Below, in pieces: positions 25,401 through 28,400 of a stretch of DNA of 64,000 nt. Position 1 is the first letter of the stretch. The number at the start of each line of letters is the position of its first letter. Source of the stretch: Escherichia coli (GTDB lineage Bacteria > Pseudomonadota > Gammaproteobacteria > Enterobacterales > Enterobacteriaceae); the NCBI RefSeq assembly GCF_003018255.1, contig NZ_CP027440.1, one strand, 5' to 3'. Position numbers: made by a program.

Positions 25401-28400
25401 GCGCGGATTATAATGAGCAACAGGGCCGTTGACTATTGATGAAGGTAACATTTTTTTAAAATAAACCCAGTTTAAGCAACAATCAGGGACAAAACAGACT
25501 ATTGCATGACAAATTTCACTGTCGCTATTTGCCCCACGTCATCCATCACCAGCAATTGATAATCGCCTTTATCCGTCAAATGCAGGGTCACGTTGCGCCC
25601 ACGTTCAGTTAACGGTTCGCCATTCAGAAACCACCAGCGTTCACCTGCCCCTCCACTTGATTGCAACGGCAAAGTCGCTTCCGCTGCGCCCGGTAAACGT
25701 TTAATAATCGCGCCATCGCGCACACCTGTTAGCTGCAGCGGGAGTTGTGCATCGTGACCGTATGGCGGGCAAATTGTCGAGGCCGGTGGCAAGCGCACAG
25801 CGCGACGTTCTGATGCGGGCAGCCAGGGTTCCAGCGGTAGCGGCCAGACATTTATCATTTCTTGTCGCGCCTGAGGGCAATCAGCGGCAACACGTTTGCC
25901 GTTTTCATCCAGCCAGATGGGGAAACGAATGCCATTAATGCCTTCCTGCTCCGGCAGTAATAGAGTTGGCGGCTGGCTCCCGTCCAGCAGCCAGGTTGCC
26001 AGGCGGCGGCGACAGTTACCGTCACCTTCCGGCAAAGACTGTCCGCCCGGCCAGCAGATAACGCCACGACTTACAGAGTCAGGACGTGGGTCTTCCGGCA
26101 AATTCACACTGCGCGACAGTAAGATATTATTAACCTGATTCAACAGCGGTACGGCACTGGCAAAGCCAAACTGACCAACAACGGGCGTGCCGTCCGGTCT
26201 GCCAGTCCAGATCCCAATGACATAGCGAGCGTTAACCCCAATCGCCCAGGCATCACGATAGCCATAGCTGGTGCCCGTTTTCCATGCCAGTGGGGCGACG
26301 CGCGGCAAGGCACCATCCGGCAAGGGTTGCGCTTCATCAGCCATAATCCGGCGAATGATCCACGCAGCCCCCGACGACATTAAAGGCCGTTCAAGCAGCG
26401 GATCGTCAGGCTGTAAGCGCAATTTGCCTGCCTTGCCGTGGCGAGCAAACGCGGTATACGCTGCCGCCATATCTTCCAGTTTTGCGCCAGCGCCGCCGAG
26501 AATGAGCGAAAGATTCGGTGCAGCACCGTTGGGCAAATACAACGGCAATCCAACATTGCGTAACTTTGCCGCAAACCGTTTCGGTCCATAGGATTCCAGC
26601 ACCTGCACAGCAGGTAAGTTCAGCGATCGCACCAGCGCCTCACTCATGCTGATCGGGCCATGAAAACCGCTGTCAAAGTTGCCAGGTCGGTAATCACCGG
26701 TGCGTCGGGGGACGTCTTGCAACAGCGATGCCGGGTGGATCAAGCCTTCATCCAGCGCCAGACCATAAACAAACGGTTTGAGCACCGATCCTGGCGATCG
26801 GATCGCATTGACCATATCAACATGACCAAAGCGTGAATCATCGTTGAGATCAACTGATCCCACCCAGCCGCGAACACGCATATCGGTATGATCAACCACG
26901 ATCATCGCCAGTGAGCTGCGCGGTGGCAATCGTCCTTTCCAGTTTTGCGCCAGTTCTTCCAGACGTCGTTGAAGACCGGCATCCAGCGTAGTAACGATTT
27001 TGTCGCTTTTGCTTTTACCGAGCATCATGCGCGAAAACAGCGGTGCCAGTTGCGGCATTTGTCGGGGTGCCAGCCAGATGGGTTCTTCCCTTGACTCTTT
27101 TACCCGCTCACGGGACCACACACCTTGCACGGCCATCCGTTCGAGCACTTTATTACGCGCGGCTTCGGCACGCTCCGGCCAACGATCCGGGCGAAGACGG
27201 CTGGGCGCTTGCGGCAACACCGCCAGCATTGCCGCCTCGGAATAGCTTAAATTCGCGGGCGATTTCCCGAGGTAAGCCCAACTTGCCGCACCAATCCCCT
27301 GCAACGTACCGCCAAACGGGGCACGGTTAAGATACAAGGTCAGAATTTCACGCTTAGACAGATGCCATTCCAGTTGCAACGCGCGCCAGAGCTGGCGAAT
27401 TTTGCCGCCAAACGTTTTGGGATGAGGATCAAGCAGGCGCGCCACCTGCATGGTGAGCGTGCTGCCGCCGGAAATGACCCGACCCGACGTGAGATCTTGC
27501 CAGGCTGCACGCGCCACCGAGAACGGATTCACCCCCGGATGCATCCAGAACCAGCGATCTTCATAATTGATCAGCGCTTCAAGGTAACGTGGAGAAACAT
27601 CTTCGATTGTTACCGGATAACGCCAGATACCGTCAGCATCGGCGAAACGCCAGAGTGGCGTACCATCCTGCGCCACCACCACGCGTGCAGGATTCACTTC
27701 TTGCAATGGCAGAGGCCAGAGTTTATCTGCTGCCCATGCTGCCAGAATGATGATAAAAGGCGCGGCTGCCAGCATTATCCAGCAGCCGCGTTTGGTTAAC
27801 AGGCGAGGCATTTACGGTCTGACTATCAACAGATCGTCAGCCGCACCAGTCGCCCGCCATTGAGGAACATACATTGATTCCACCATAGGCTGCGGCACCT
27901 GATACGTTCCCGGCGTCACCGCCCGCGCCAGATACACCAGCGTTACCGGTTGATATTCATCAACGGCAACCGCCGCCACAAAGCGATCGTCACGGAACTC
28001 TATGTGCTTAATGCTCGCCTGCTGCATCTGGTTCAGCAAGTTCTGCACTTCACCACCACTTTGCTCCAGGCTGGCGCTGCCGTTCGCCAGATTCTGGTTT
28101 TCCAGTTCCAGCCCCGCAGGCAACAGATCCACGACTAACGCATCCGGTACACTGTTACTGGCTTTAACCTGCAACCACACCAGCACCAGATCGCCGCTAC
28201 GTAACGAGTCCAGCGATTTGCTCTTACCGTCAGTACCCAGAATATGACGCTCAATTTGCAGCACATTGCTCGCCGGTAAAGGTGCGGATTGCGGATAACC
28301 GCTGGCATCCACACGCAGCCATAACGGCTGATCGCCACTGTTGGTCACCTGCAAGGTGGCAAGTTGATCGCTATTCAGATTGCTGGTTTGCGCTTTCTCG

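What the first reader, a model, noticed from the sequence alone, without database searches (positions are those of the whole stretch)
27809..27814. Zero-spacer junction between yfhM (alpha-2-macroglobulin) and pbpC
The pbpC start codon directly abuts the yfhM stop, indicating translational coupling of the macroglobulin-like lipoprotein with the PBP1c peptidoglycan synthase, a pairing thought to act as a periplasmic defence-and-repair module.
Basis: partly seen in the sequence, partly recalled or inferred. Interest (0 to 1): 0.3.

Follow-up and report, generated by a model that had tools for sequence, protein, structure and literature searches.

The report
Coupled yfhM–pbpC junction with conserved hairpin
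The cell-wall enzyme gene pbpC starts on the base right after the stop of the protease-trap gene yfhM, has no ribosome-binding site of its own, and carries a previously undescribed, evolutionarily conserved RNA hairpin 22 bases into its coding sequence, so its production very probably depends on ribosomes that have just finished yfhM.

Summary
On the minus strand, yfhM (32773..27812) ends in TAA and pbpC (27811..25499) begins with ATG on the next base, as RefSeq annotates. A tight junction alone is ordinary: 5 of 38 same-strand pairs here are ≤1 nt apart. The comparative evidence is what supports coupling. All 55 Enterobacteriaceae sequences have a 0- or 1-nt spacer, and 10 use GTG. None has a Shine-Dalgarno (≥ −2.2 kcal/mol; regional gene median −6.1). 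No conserved alternative start or promoter-like site was found.

It is present in 53/53 sequences (95.9% paired, 9 of 13 pairs with double-sided changes, 0/500 shuffles). It is absent from distant relatives (Yersinia, Pseudomonas), which have long spacers and, in most cases, a recognisable Shine-Dalgarno.

My best reading is termination–reinitiation, helped by a 'starting-block' stem-loop like the fepA/bamA translation-activating stem-loop. The rivals are a coding-embedded terminator/attenuator or a 3′-protective stem-loop for yfhM mRNA. No 3′ end is reported there in three E. coli datasets, and the U-tract is not conserved. The operon and its defence-and-repair idea are already known. Neither Rfam nor the papers searched describe the hairpin. 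Interest is moderate.

The parts
27812..32773 (-). yfhM (ECAM) coding sequence, 1653 aa, thioester-class bacterial alpha-2-macroglobulin lipoprotein; it ends ...Arg-Pro-TAA
   Evidence: ORF. Pfam bMG1/2/3/5/6/10, A2M_BRD, TED and CUB. Lipobox LAGC18 and CLEQ1187. RefSeq annotation.
27812..27814 (-). yfhM stop codon TAA, preceded by an invariant Pro codon (CCG, 27815-27817)
   Evidence: The 'CC' of the last codon is invariant in alignment A2. Pro-stop is also present in the near outgroups L062 and L063 but not in the long-spacer outgroups.
27809..27811 (-). pbpC start codon ATG, directly abutting the stop (zero spacer)
   Evidence: The PbpC equivalog profile aligns from residue 1. This is the only start conserved across 55 sequences, at offset 0 or +1.
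27815..27834 (-). The 20 nt upstream of the pbpC start (the last yfhM codons), with no Shine-Dalgarno
   Evidence: The anti-SD duplex is +0.4 kcal/mol here and no better than -2.2 in all 55 sequences. The median of 48 neighbouring genes is -6.1.
27799..27857 (-). Predicted long helix ('helix B'). It pairs yfhM codons (GGCGGGCGA...) with the G of the AUG and pbpC codons 2-4, leaving UAAAUG in a 4-nt internal loop. It is specific to Escherichia.
   Evidence: MFE fold of 150 nt: -62.2 kcal/mol, z -3.6. It is kept in 6 of 8 Escherichia sequences (unpaired probability 0.23-0.27) but not in other genera (0.29-0.61). pbpC has the third-lowest accessibility of 48 genes.
27761..27790 (-). Conserved mRNA hairpin ('hairpin A'): CGCGGCUGCUGG-AUAAUG-CUGGCAGCCGCG. 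It has 12 bp, 9 of them G-C, and its 5' base is at +22 of pbpC (codons 8-17, R-G-C-W-I-M-L-A-A-A).
   Evidence: -23.4 kcal/mol, z -4.4. Across 53 sequences 95.9% of cells are paired, 9 of 13 pairs show double-sided changes, 0 of 500 shuffles reach the score, and slid controls give 31-57%. RNAalifold predicts the same helix. It is the strongest hairpin starting at +17..+25 among 48 gene starts. No Rfam match.
27751..27760 (-). Tail after the hairpin, CCUUUUAUCA: a weak U-tract in Escherichia (Pro-Phe-Ile codons at the start of the membrane helix)
   Evidence: Terminator-like call. The discriminant is negative in Escherichia and positive in 18 of 53 sequences (Klebsiella, Pluralibacter-like). 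U enrichment over synonymous expectation is only mild and clade-specific.
25499..27811 (-). pbpC coding sequence, 770 aa, PBP1C (glycosyltransferase, transpeptidase and BiPBP_C domains). The N-terminal tail MPRLLTKRG is followed by a membrane helix at about residues 10-28.
   Evidence: (EDRWFWMHPG84, SVLK342, SLN396, KTG511, hydropathy).
32818..32846 (-). Sigma-70-like promoter match (ATTACA-17-CATAAT) 45 nt upstream of the yfhM ATG. It is a candidate operon promoter and the only minus-strand match upstream of pbpC.
   Evidence: This is a consensus match only: 5 sites were found against 5.7 expected, so it is weak evidence.

Best explanation
yfhM and pbpC form one compact bicistronic message. 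pbpC has no ribosome-binding site of its own, so it is translated by ribosomes that have just terminated at the yfhM UAA and re-initiate on the AUG 0-1 nt away (termination-reinitiation coupling). In Escherichia the start is also buried in a helix that only a ribosome translating the end of yfhM can open.

A conserved 12-13-bp G+C-rich hairpin begins at +22 of pbpC, just beyond the 3' edge of a ribosome sitting on the start codon. I propose that it acts as a 'starting block'. It would stop the post-termination ribosome from sliding downstream and hold it over the SD-less start, as described for the translation-activating stem-loops of fepA and bamA. The invariant Pro-stop at the end of yfhM may lengthen the ribosome's stay at the junction. 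The outcome would be a low PBP1C output held proportional to YfhM synthesis.

What is shown here: the anatomy, the conservation of spacing, the absence of an SD, and selection on the RNA pairing. What is inferred: that re-initiation occurs, and what the hairpin does.
For: 1. The junction is 0 or 1 nt in 55 of 55 sequences, never an overlap and never longer. The single spacer base is free to vary (A, C, G or T) and 10 starts are GTG.
2. No SD is present in any sequence (no better than -2.2 kcal/mol, against a regional median of -6.1). The other four tight pairs in the region keep SD energies of -3.1 to -11.6.
3. No promoter-like site lies inside yfhM, and there is no conserved alternative start. 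The PbpC family profile aligns from residue 1.
4. Hairpin covariation: 95.9% paired, 122 double-sided cells in 9 of 13 pairs, 0 of 500 shuffles. RNAalifold agrees. There are 22 outer-stem variants, five of them major and fully Watson-Crick paired. The changes alter the amino acids, so the constraint is on the RNA.
5. The near-invariant U.G and G.U pairs would be mismatches on the other strand, which places the structure on the mRNA strand.
6. The distance from start to hairpin is fixed at +22 in all 53 sequences and is +19 to +23 in the outgroups L062 and L063. There are no indels in codons 2-7 despite 46 different hexapeptides, and the only indel lies in the loop. The distance from stop to hairpin ranges from 25 to 36 nt.
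7. The hairpin co-occurs with a short spacer and a weak or absent SD (L062, L063). It is absent where pbpC has a long spacer, in most cases with a recognisable SD: Yersinia -6.8, L065 -5.8, L066 -11.
8. Precedent: the fepA/bamA stem-loop at about +20 enhances initiation as a 'roadblock' or 'starting block' (PMC7534054, PMC12692685, PMC11979758, all citing Jagodnik 2017).
9. It is the strongest hairpin starting at +17..+25 among 48 local gene starts.
Against: - There is no experimental evidence for coupling or for the pbpC start. I could not retrieve ribosome-profiling or proteomic ratios.
- The hairpin (about -22 to -35 kcal/mol) is described as much more stable than the short fepA stem-loop, and structure this strong early in a coding sequence could just as well throttle translation.
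- In 18 of 53 species it looks like a canonical intrinsic terminator, with an A-tract, a G+C stem and a U-tract.
- Long-spacer relatives carry terminator-like hairpins soon after the A2M stop (L059, L066). That fits a function at the 3' end of yfhM equally well.
- The constant distance to the start could be inherited rather than selected, or could reflect a constraint on tail length in the protein.
- Only seven outgroup loci were examined.
- Helix B is not conserved outside Escherichia.
Confidence: 0.5

Rival explanations
1. The hairpin is an intrinsic terminator or attenuator embedded in the first codons of pbpC. Most transcripts would end just after yfhM, and only read-through transcripts would encode PBP1C, which would set a high YfhM:PBP1C ratio. 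The tight junction would then matter little for the ratio.
For: - The terminator scan flags it (12 bp, 9 G-C, followed by CCUUUUAUCA).
- 18 of 53 species score as canonical terminators, for example Klebsiella UAAAACGCCGCUGGC-GCUG-GCUGGCGGCGUUUAUUUUU.
- There is mild U enrichment over synonymous expectation in Citrobacter, the Klebsiella oxytoca group and Enterobacter.
- The hairpin starts 25 nt or more after the first base of the stop codon, which I judge to be outside the footprint of a terminating ribosome (inference).
- Outgroup L059 has a textbook terminator in its 116-nt spacer, and L066 has a large hairpin followed by a U-run right after the A2M stop.
Against: - The U-tract is not conserved while the stem is. 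Escherichia scores -24 to -46 on the discriminant, and the median over all species is -6.9.
- Codon choice shows no U selection in Escherichia.
- No 3' end in yfhM or pbpC appears in the complete curated Term-seq tables of Adams 2021, nor in the TERMITe or TRS supplements. Low expression could hide one.
- It does not explain the fixed distance to the start or the loss of the SD.
Confidence: 0.18
2. The hairpin is a 3'-protective stem-loop. pbpC is poorly translated, so its RNA is removed by Rho-dependent termination or decay, and 3'-5' exonucleases trim back to the hairpin. This would stabilise a monocistronic yfhM mRNA and uncouple the two protein levels.
For: - Dar & Sorek 2018 (PMC6061677) found that steady-state 3' ends of Rho-dependent E. 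coli transcripts lie right after stable stem-loops that lack U-tracts. The Escherichia form of this hairpin fits that description.
- The hairpin sits immediately after the complete yfhM ORF.
- Long-spacer relatives have stable hairpins in the equivalent place.
- A U-tract is not needed, which fits its variability.
Against: - No C-rich, G-poor rut-like region follows the hairpin (C minus G is about -0.07 at +40..+140).
- No 3' end or Rho-termination region is listed for pbpC or yfhM in Adams 2021.
- It does not predict the fixed distance to the start.
- Hairpins of similar energy are not rare: this one does not reach the 25 strongest listed for the window.
Confidence: 0.17
3. The junction is simple genome compaction with no functional coupling. 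pbpC would be initiated independently (SD-independent 30S binding, or an internal promoter), and the hairpin would be a by-product of coding for the Arg/Trp/Ala-rich start of the membrane anchor.
For: - SD-less genes exist in this region (rodZ +0.6, xseA +0.2).
- Tight junctions are common (5 of 38).
- The inner stem coincides with conserved codons (CGC-TGG ... CTG-GCG; majority frequency 0.93-0.94).
- A sigma-E SELEX peak was reported inside yfhM (PMC5493296), although by my coordinate conversion it lies near the 5' end of the gene.
Against: - The outer five stem pairs covary through amino-acid-changing substitutions (15-28 double changes per pair). Protein constraint does not predict that.
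- The 0-1 nt spacing is held across about 50 species next to highly variable codons.
- GTG starts without an SD occur in 10 species.
- No promoter match lies in yfhM.
- The start is occluded in Escherichia.
Confidence: 0.08

Closest known systems
Translational coupling by termination-reinitiation at abutting or overlapping stop/start codons (classic E. coli cases trpE-trpD, trpB-trpA and galT-galK; the scanning model of Adhin & van Duin; own knowledge, not re-read here)
   Same: Both involve same-strand neighbours in one operon, with the downstream start within a nucleotide or two of the upstream stop. Downstream translation is expected to depend on upstream ribosomes, and the arrangement is conserved.
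   Different: Here the downstream gene has no SD at all in 55 of 55 sequences, whereas the other tight pairs in this region keep one. The spacing is 0 or +1 rather than the commoner -4 or -1 overlaps. A conserved hairpin at +22 accompanies the junction. Dependence has not been tested.
[quoted passage not shown]
   Same: Both are stem-loops inside the coding sequence at about +20 from the start, just outside the 30S footprint. The TASL is proposed to position the ribosome on the start codon as a 'starting block' or 'roadblock'.
   Different: fepA has an SD and an unstructured initiation region, and it recruits free 30S subunits. pbpC has no SD and would be served by post-termination ribosomes. 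The pbpC stem is described as much longer and more stable (12-15 bp, -19 to -35 kcal/mol). No sRNA is known to target it. Activation has not been tested.
Stem-loops that define and protect mRNA 3' ends inside or after operon genes: intrinsic terminators, and the U-less stem-loops at Rho-dependent 3' ends (Dar & Sorek 2018, PMC6061677). Intercistronic stabilisers such as the malE-malF REP are from my own knowledge.
   Same: It is a stable G+C-rich hairpin a short distance after a stop codon. The form is terminator-like in Klebsiella and U-less in Escherichia. Hairpins are equivalently placed in the spacers of distant relatives.
   Different: It lies inside the next gene's coding sequence rather than in a spacer. 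No 3' end is reported there in three datasets, and no rut-like composition follows it.
The alpha-2-macroglobulin/PBP1C 'defence and repair' gene pair (Budd 2004; Doan & Gettins 2008; cited in PMC4498604, PMC3328433 and PMC3735191)
   Same: This is the same two genes in the same order, with the thioester-class lipoprotein upstream of pbpC. The window is an ordinary E. coli example.
   Different: The literature I could search treats the pair at the level of gene adjacency or operon. It says nothing about the junction, the missing SD or the hairpin. The tight junction is confined to Enterobacteriaceae and near relatives; Yersinia and Pseudomonas have spacers of 325-651 nt.
Structure-gated coupling, in which an upstream translating ribosome unfolds a helix that hides the downstream start (RNA-phage coat/replicase, several E. 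coli operons; own knowledge)
   Same: In Escherichia the pbpC start lies within a predicted 59-nt helix formed with yfhM codons.
   Different: The helix is not conserved outside Escherichia, so it cannot be the general mechanism. It has only single-sided (wobble) changes as support.

Membership tests
Thioester-class bacterial alpha-2-macroglobulin (YfhM/ECAM) | Array of bacterial MG domains with bait region, TED, CUB and C-terminal MG10 | tested here: met
   Pfam bMG1, A2M_bMG2, bMG3, MG2, bMG5, bMG6, A2M_BRD, A2M, TED_complement, CUB_A2MG and bMG10, all above their cut-offs.
Thioester-class bacterial alpha-2-macroglobulin (YfhM/ECAM) | CxEQ thioester motif and an N-terminal lipoprotein signal with a lipobox Cys | tested here: met
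   CLEQ at 1187; MKKLRVAACMLMLALAGC with lipobox LAGC (Cys18). These features are listed as defining in PMC3735191.
Thioester-class bacterial alpha-2-macroglobulin (YfhM/ECAM) | Gene juxtaposed to pbpC | tested here: met
   The same holds in all 52 related loci that carry both genes.
PBP1C (class A penicillin-binding protein, PbpC) | Glycosyltransferase and transpeptidase domains with catalytic motifs, plus the PBP1C-specific C-terminal domain | tested here: met
   Pfam Transgly, Transpeptidase and BiPBP_C. NCBIfam equivalog NF008414 scores 1563.7 bits against a cut-off of 1121, and TIGR02073 also matches. Motifs EDRWFWMHPG, SVLK, SLN and KTG are present.
PBP1C (class A penicillin-binding protein, PbpC) | N-terminal cytoplasmic tail with positive charges followed by a single membrane anchor | tested here: met
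   MPRLLTKRG followed by CWIMLAAAPFIIILAAWAA, with a 19-residue hydropathy peak of 2.21.
Translationally coupled gene pair (termination-reinitiation) | Same operon and strand, with the downstream start within a few nt of the upstream stop | tested here: met
   Zero spacer here; 0 or 1 nt in 55 of 55 sequences.
Translationally coupled gene pair (termination-reinitiation) | No independent means of initiation: weak or absent SD, occluded start, no internal promoter | tested here: met
   SD no better than -2.2 kcal/mol everywhere, against a median of -6.1. Unpaired probability is 0.23 in Escherichia. No promoter-like match lies in yfhM (a consensus scan only).
Translationally coupled gene pair (termination-reinitiation) | Downstream translation falls when upstream translation is stopped early | not testable with these tools
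   This needs reporter fusions with premature stops in yfhM. I found no published test.
Translation-activating stem-loop (fepA/bamA type) | [quoted passage not shown] | tested here: met
   The 5' base is at +22 in 53 of 53 sequences and at +19 and +23 in L062 and L063. fepA is described as 'around nucleotide +20' or 'more than 20 nts downstream'.
Translation-activating stem-loop (fepA/bamA type) | The structure, not the sequence, is what matters (compensatory changes tolerated) | tested here: met
   Natural covariation: 9 of 13 pairs with double-sided changes, 95.9% paired. This shows selection on the pairing, not activation.
Translation-activating stem-loop (fepA/bamA type) | Disrupting the stem lowers 30S binding and translation, and the position relative to the start is critical | not testable with these tools
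   This needs toeprinting and fusions. The only indirect hint is the absence of indels between the start and the stem.
Intrinsic (Rho-independent) terminator | G+C-rich stem with a short loop | tested here: met
   12-15 bp, loop of 4-6 nt, -19 to -35 kcal/mol.
Intrinsic (Rho-independent) terminator | U-tract immediately after the stem | tested here: inconclusive
   The d'Aubenton-Carafa-style score is positive in 18 of 53 sequences (Klebsiella, Pluralibacter-like) and negative in Escherichia (-24 to -46). Synonymous-codon U enrichment is mild and clade-specific.
Intrinsic (Rho-independent) terminator | An RNA 3' end maps at the U-tract in vivo | tested here: not met
   No yfhM or pbpC entry appears in the complete curated tables of Adams 2021 or in the TERMITe and TRS supplements. 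The caveat is that the operon may be too weakly expressed in those conditions, and other datasets were not held.
Protective stem-loop at a Rho-dependent 3' end | Stable stem-loop without a U-tract, with a C-rich, G-poor rut region just downstream | tested here: inconclusive
   The stem without a U-tract is met in Escherichia. The rut-like composition is not seen: C minus G is about -0.07 at +40..+140, with only weak C over G at +320..+440.

The most novel reading that the evidence does not exclude
The hairpin is a dual-purpose element written into pbpC codons 8-17. It would hold the post-termination ribosome on an SD-less start and also act as a conditional terminator or decay barrier. RNA polymerase or the message would continue into pbpC only when a ribosome has re-initiated and melts the stem. 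That would be an intra-operon attenuator whose 'leader' is the end of a 1653-codon gene. It would hard-wire the YfhM:PBP1C ratio without a leader peptide, an sRNA or a protein factor. The invariant Pro-stop would serve as the timing device.
Probability: 0.1. Interest if true: 0.7.

Novelty: new member of a known kind. Interest (0 to 1): 0.38.

Why it matters
PBP1C is the least understood class A PBP of E. coli, and its only functional hypothesis rests on its linkage to the periplasmic protease trap YfhM.

If pbpC cannot be translated except by ribosomes coming off yfhM, the two proteins are made in a fixed ratio from the same message. That is a stronger and more testable statement than 'adjacent genes'. 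It also predicts that plasmid or knock-in constructs that separate pbpC from the end of yfhM will mis-express it.

The hairpin is a clean, strongly covarying RNA structure inside a coding sequence. It is absent from Rfam, and its stem can be mutated and restored. It therefore offers a natural test of whether 'starting-block' stem-loops also serve re-initiating ribosomes on SD-less starts. The lineage contrast also helps: Enterobacteriaceae have a 0-1 nt spacer with a hairpin inside the ORF, while Yersinia and Pseudomonas have a long spacer, in most cases with a recognisable SD. This shows how an intergenic control region can be collapsed into coding sequence.

The gene pair and the operon are textbook, so the significance is moderate.

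Tried and rejected
- **Rfam:** scanning the junction at a permissive E-value gave only a spurious eukaryotic lncRNA hit.
- **Published RNA 3' ends, TSS and operon maps:** the Adams 2021, TERMITe and TRS supplements have no yfhM or pbpC entries. The supplements of the Rend-seq annotation paper, Conway 2014, the 3'-UTR valves paper and Dar & Sorek 2018 are not held. Li 2014 synthesis rates could not be retrieved. The YfhM:PBP1C ratio therefore remains unknown to me.
- **Literature on the junction:** searches for yfhM+pbpC, pbpC+'translational coupling' and yfhM alone found nothing on the junction or the hairpin.
- **Canonical-terminator reading for Escherichia:** rejected as the general explanation because the U-tract is neither conserved nor favoured by codon choice.
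- **Rut-site test:** negative.
- **Helix B as the general gate:** rejected, because it is specific to Escherichia.
- **Hairpin as unique by energy:** rejected. It does not reach the 25 strongest local hairpins listed for the window. The covariation is what counts.
- **Stop-codon read-through fusion:** the ORFs are in frame in the 0-nt species. I rejected the idea because the 1-nt species are out of frame and the fusion would invert PBP1C topology (inference).
- **CsrA-type GGA loop motif:** present only in Escherichia loops, so rejected.
- **SRP-pause role:** I judge the hairpin too early in the ORF, at codons 8-17 (inference).
- **Bury-Moné 2009 mention of 'PBP 1C':** this turned out to be a mislabel of yfgM.
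- **The roughly 93% identity class in E. coli:** it reflects a local divergence peak of 7-8% at 27400-28600 on a 2-4% background, not a foreign allele.

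
Full report
**1. Observation**

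The minus strand reads ...AGA CCG TAA ATG CCT CGC.... A 1653-aa ORF (32773..27812) stops at TAA (27814..27812), and a 770-aa ORF (27811..25499) starts with ATG on the very next base. The reported hexamer 27809-27814 is therefore exactly stop plus start with zero spacer.

ORF1 is a complete thioester-class bacterial alpha-2-macroglobulin. It has eleven Pfam domains above threshold, the lipobox LAGC with Cys18, and CLEQ at 1187. ORF2 is PBP1C. It has the Transgly, Transpeptidase and BiPBP_C domains. It matches the NCBIfam PbpC equivalog over residues 1-770 of a 774-position profile. It carries the catalytic motifs and a positively charged tail followed by a membrane helix.

RefSeq annotates the same abutting coordinates in strain 104 (99.7% identical to the window), in a strain of the other allele class, and in K-12 MG1655, where pbpC is 2645013..2647325 and yfhM is 2647326..2652287. 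The window is E. coli, from glyA-side genes through guaBA.

**2. Is it more than chance?**

A tight junction is not remarkable in itself. Among 38 same-strand adjacent pairs in this region, five are 1 nt apart or less: hcaBC -4, hcaFE -4, hcaCF -1, yfhM-pbpC 0 and hscA-fdx +1. Its conservation is the notable part.

I fetched 53 loci from one-genome-per-species Enterobacteriaceae and extracted every junction. Of 55 sequences with both genes, including the window and two other E. coli, the classes are:
- 27 have TAA|ATG.
- 18 have TAA-N-ATG.
- 7 have TAA-N-GTG.
- 3 have TAG-C-GTG.

None overlaps and none has more than 1 nt. The single spacer base can be any of the four nucleotides. The adjoining pbpC codons 2-7 are very variable (majority frequency 0.51, 46 different hexapeptides in 53 sequences) yet have no indels. 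Within E. coli the junction lies in the locally most diverged stretch between the two allele classes (7-8% against 2-4% elsewhere), and both TAAATG and the hairpin are retained.

**3. Evidence for translational coupling**

- **No Shine-Dalgarno.** The best duplex between the 20 nt upstream of the start and the anti-SD is +0.4 kcal/mol in the window and no better than -2.2 in all 55 sequences. The same calculation on 48 annotated genes of the region gives a median of -6.1. pbpC is the second weakest. The other four tightly spaced genes keep -3.1 to -11.6.
- **Weak starts.** Ten species use GTG with no SD.
- **No alternative start.** No other in-frame start is conserved, and the positive tail needed for membrane topology lies upstream of any internal Met.
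- **No internal promoter match.** The sigma-70 consensus scan finds no minus-strand site inside yfhM. The only one upstream of pbpC is 45 nt before the yfhM ATG. This is a weak test, with 5 sites found against 5.7 expected.
- **Occluded start in Escherichia.** The stop/start sits in a 4-nt internal loop of a predicted 59-nt helix that pairs yfhM codons with the G of the AUG and pbpC codons 2-4 (150 nt, -62.2 kcal/mol, z -3.6). The unpaired probability around the start is 0.23, third lowest of 48 genes, against a median of 0.47. This helix appears in 6 of 8 Escherichia sequences but not in other genera (0.29-0.61), so it is a lineage-specific reinforcement.

All of this fits re-initiation by ribosomes that have just terminated on yfhM. 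None of it is an experimental demonstration.

**4.

The terminator scan flagged a 12-bp stem with 9 G-C pairs at 27790..27761 (minus strand): CGCGGCUGCUGG-AUAAUG-CUGGCAGCCGCG, followed by CCUUUUAUCA. It folds at -23.4 kcal/mol with z -4.4. It occupies pbpC codons 8-17, and its 5' base is at +22.

Folding each orthologous sequence showed the hairpin in every genus but with different stems. On a nearly gap-free alignment of 53 distinct sequences (A2), the 13-pair structure has these properties:
- It is 95.9% paired, against 31-57% when the partner columns are slid.
- Nine pairs show double-sided changes, covering 122 cells.
- The covariation score is 0.484, against 0.159 ± 0.014 in shuffles (0 of 500 reach it).
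- RNAalifold predicts the same helix independently.

The five outer pairs carry the covariation, with 15-28 double changes each. There are 22 arm combinations, five of them major and fully Watson-Crick paired: CGCTC/GAGCG, CGCGG/CCGCG, AAACG/CGTTT, AAATC/GATTT and CGCGC/GCGCG. These substitutions change the encoded residues; the Klebsiella and Enterobacter stems, for example, encode different residues on both arms. The constraint is therefore on the RNA, not the protein.

Two near-invariant wobble pairs, U.G and G.U, would be mismatches on the opposite strand, which points to the mRNA strand. They do lie in conserved Trp and Leu codons. The only indel in the element is a one-codon insertion in the loop of L043.

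By energy alone the hairpin does not reach the 25 strongest local hairpins listed for the window. It is, however, the strongest hairpin starting at +17..+25 among 48 gene starts (-22.3, against a median of -6.0 and a next best of -16.2). There is no Rfam match, and no paper I could find mentions it.

**5. Outgroups**

I took seven more distant A2M-pbpC loci from a protein search and contig look-ups and read them.

| Locus | Identity | Spacer | SD (kcal/mol) | Hairpin or spacer features | Last A2M codon |
|---|---|---|---|---|---|
| L062 | 63% | 13 nt | -3.6 | hairpin in pbpC at +19 | Pro |
| L063/L064 | 62% | 10 nt (GTG start) | -3.8 | 15-bp stem in pbpC at +23, with AAAA before and GCUUUUAUUGUG after | Pro |
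| L059 | 51% | 116 nt | -2.4 | two spacer hairpins, one a textbook terminator; none in pbpC | Arg |
| L065 | 50% | 49 nt | -5.8 | only a short 8-bp stem in pbpC, with no U-run | Arg |
| Yersinia enterocolitica (L061) | 54% | 325 nt | -6.8 | repeat-rich spacer | Lys |
| P. syringae (L060) | 47% | 651 nt | -3.2 (TTG start as called) | spacer with an antisense 97-aa ORF | Lys |
| L066 (Pseudomonas-like) | 49% | 527 nt | -11.0 | a very large hairpin plus U-run right after the A2M stop; antisense 97-aa ORF | Arg |

Three features therefore travel together: a short spacer with a weak or absent SD, the in-ORF hairpin at +19..+23, and a Pro-stop ending on the A2M gene. All three are absent where the spacer is long. 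The outgroup sample is small.

**6. What the hairpin does**

Three mechanisms fit parts of the data.

*(a) Starting block.* Jagodnik et al. 2017 described stem-loops at about +20 in the fepA and bamA coding sequences that raise translation initiation. [quoted passage not shown]

The pbpC stem starts at +22, just beyond a ribosome placed on the AUG. Its distance to the start is fixed (+22; +19 to +23 with outgroups), whereas its distance to the stop ranges from 25 to 36 nt. It occurs only where the SD is weak or missing. For a post-termination ribosome with no SD to anchor it, a barrier against downstream sliding would be especially useful. That last step is inference, building on the scanning model of re-initiation, which I cite from my own knowledge.

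*(b) Intrinsic terminator or attenuator.* In 18 of 53 species the element scores as a canonical terminator, and several have a 5' A-tract and a 3' U-tract. But Escherichia scores -24 to -46, and the U-tract is only mildly favoured by codon choice (+1.2 U per 15 nt, p<0.05 in 17-23% of sequences, none in Escherichia). No yfhM or pbpC 3' end is listed in the complete curated Term-seq tables of Adams 2021 or in two other compilations.

*(c) Protective stem-loop at a Rho-dependent or decay-generated 3' end.* Dar & Sorek 2018 (PMC6061677) describe such U-less stem-loops. This would fit poorly translated pbpC RNA being trimmed back to the end of yfhM. However, no rut-like C-over-G region follows the hairpin, and again no 3' end is reported.

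I rank (a) first because it alone predicts the fixed distance to the start and the association with SD loss. Readings (b) and (c) are not excluded, and a dual role is possible.

My sub-confidences are as follows:

| Claim | Confidence |
|---|---|
| The RNA pairing is under selection | about 0.95 |
| pbpC translation depends on yfhM termination | about 0.8 |
| The starting-block role | about 0.4 |
| The composite explanation | 0.5 |

**7. Comparison with what is known, and novelty**

The gene pair, its operon status and the 'defence and repair' idea are established (Budd 2004 and Doan & Gettins 2008, as cited in PMC4498604, PMC3328433 and PMC3735191). The abutting coordinates are in every RefSeq annotation. 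That part is already known.

The following were not described in anything I could search, and the hairpin is not in Rfam:
- the inference of obligatory coupling from a family-wide absence of an SD
- the confinement of the tight junction to Enterobacteriaceae and near relatives
- the strongly covarying coding-sequence hairpin

I file this as a new member of known kinds: a re-initiation-coupled pair with an early-CDS stem-loop. Interest is moderate at 0.38. It is a solid, easily testable cis-element in a well-known operon, but it is not a new principle unless the dual-function reading holds.

Noticed in passing
L003 (E. coli NCTC9100, NZ_LR134239.1) 6499-6676: This strain keeps an intact yfhM but has a clean deletion of nearly all of pbpC plus ndk. 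The breakpoint lies after pbpC codon 6, just before the hairpin, and rlmN follows 176 nt after the yfhM stop. It is the only one of 5425 matching genomes that covers less than 80% of the junction query. It is a natural uncoupling of the pair, and ndk loss is a known mutator genotype (own knowledge).
   Followed up: partly
window 27400-28600: Only 991 of 5425 E. coli genomes match the junction kilobase at 99% or more, and 4306 match at 90-95%. A sliding comparison with a non-B2 allele shows 2-4% divergence across yfhM-pbpC with a local peak of 7-8% at the yfhM 3' end and pbpC 5' end. Another dip, to 88% identity, lies at 22617-22910 in rodZ.
   Followed up: partly
window 27815-27817 (minus strand) and alignment A2 columns 7-9: YfhM ends in Pro-stop in all 53 Enterobacteriaceae and in the two short-spacer outgroups, but ends in Arg or Lys in the five long-spacer outgroups. 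A C-terminal Pro is known to slow peptide release (own knowledge), so it may be part of the coupling device.
   Followed up: partly
window 15814-15858 (minus strand): The most stable local hairpin in the window is a perfect 20-bp stem (-34.6 kcal/mol). It begins at +31 of sinH (ATG at 15888), inside its signal-peptide codons (MLRWKRCIILTFISGAAFAAPEINV). It is another strong early-CDS structure in an envelope-protein gene.
   Followed up: no
L060 4108-4758 and L066 1318-1844: In Pseudomonas-type loci the A2M-pbpC spacer is 527-651 nt and holds a conserved 97-aa ORF on the opposite strand. In P. syringae it also holds a (TTGATTGG)n tandem repeat right after the A2M stop. L066 has a hairpin of about 24 bp followed by a U-run immediately after the stop.
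   Followed up: no
L061 1487-1811 (Yersinia enterocolitica): The 325-nt spacer between A2M and pbpC contains repeated AGACTCACTCCCC motifs in inverted arrangement, resembling an ERIC-like repetitive element, and a GC hairpin (GCCGCGCCAUAUAUGGCGCGGAC). pbpC has its own SD (GGGAG) there.
   Followed up: no
L028 and L055: Two GTDB species-representative assemblies carry obvious Enterobacteriaceae DNA. A 280-kb contig labelled Chryseobacterium sp. 18061 has a typical enterobacterial yfhM-pbpC locus. A 266-bp contig labelled Nocardioides malaquae is 92% identical to E. coli YfhM. Both are probably contamination or mislabelling.
   Followed up: no
window 27809-27814: In the 0-nt species the two ORFs are in the same frame, separated by a single TAA, so read-through would give a 2424-residue fusion. 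In the 1-nt species they are out of frame, so this is not conserved, and the fusion would be topologically implausible.
   Followed up: yes
K-12 yfhM, old coordinate 2649866 (PMC5493296): Shimada et al. 2017 list a sigma-E genomic-SELEX peak inside yfhM (type D, pbpC < yfhM > sseA). After my own conversion of coordinates (a shift recalled from memory), it falls near the 5' part of yfhM. It is therefore more likely related to the operon promoter than to an internal pbpC promoter.
   Followed up: partly
window 33833-33876: A symmetric A-tract/G+C stem/U-tract hairpin (AAAAAACCGCC...GGCGGTTTTTT, about -25 kcal/mol on both strands) lies just downstream of sseA. It looks like a bidirectional intrinsic terminator.
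   Followed up: no
L043 4390-4485 (Silvania confinis): The only indel in the junction-plus-hairpin alignment is a 3-nt (one-codon) insertion in the hairpin loop. The loop tolerates a length change, while the 21 nt between the start and the stem never do.
   Followed up: yes
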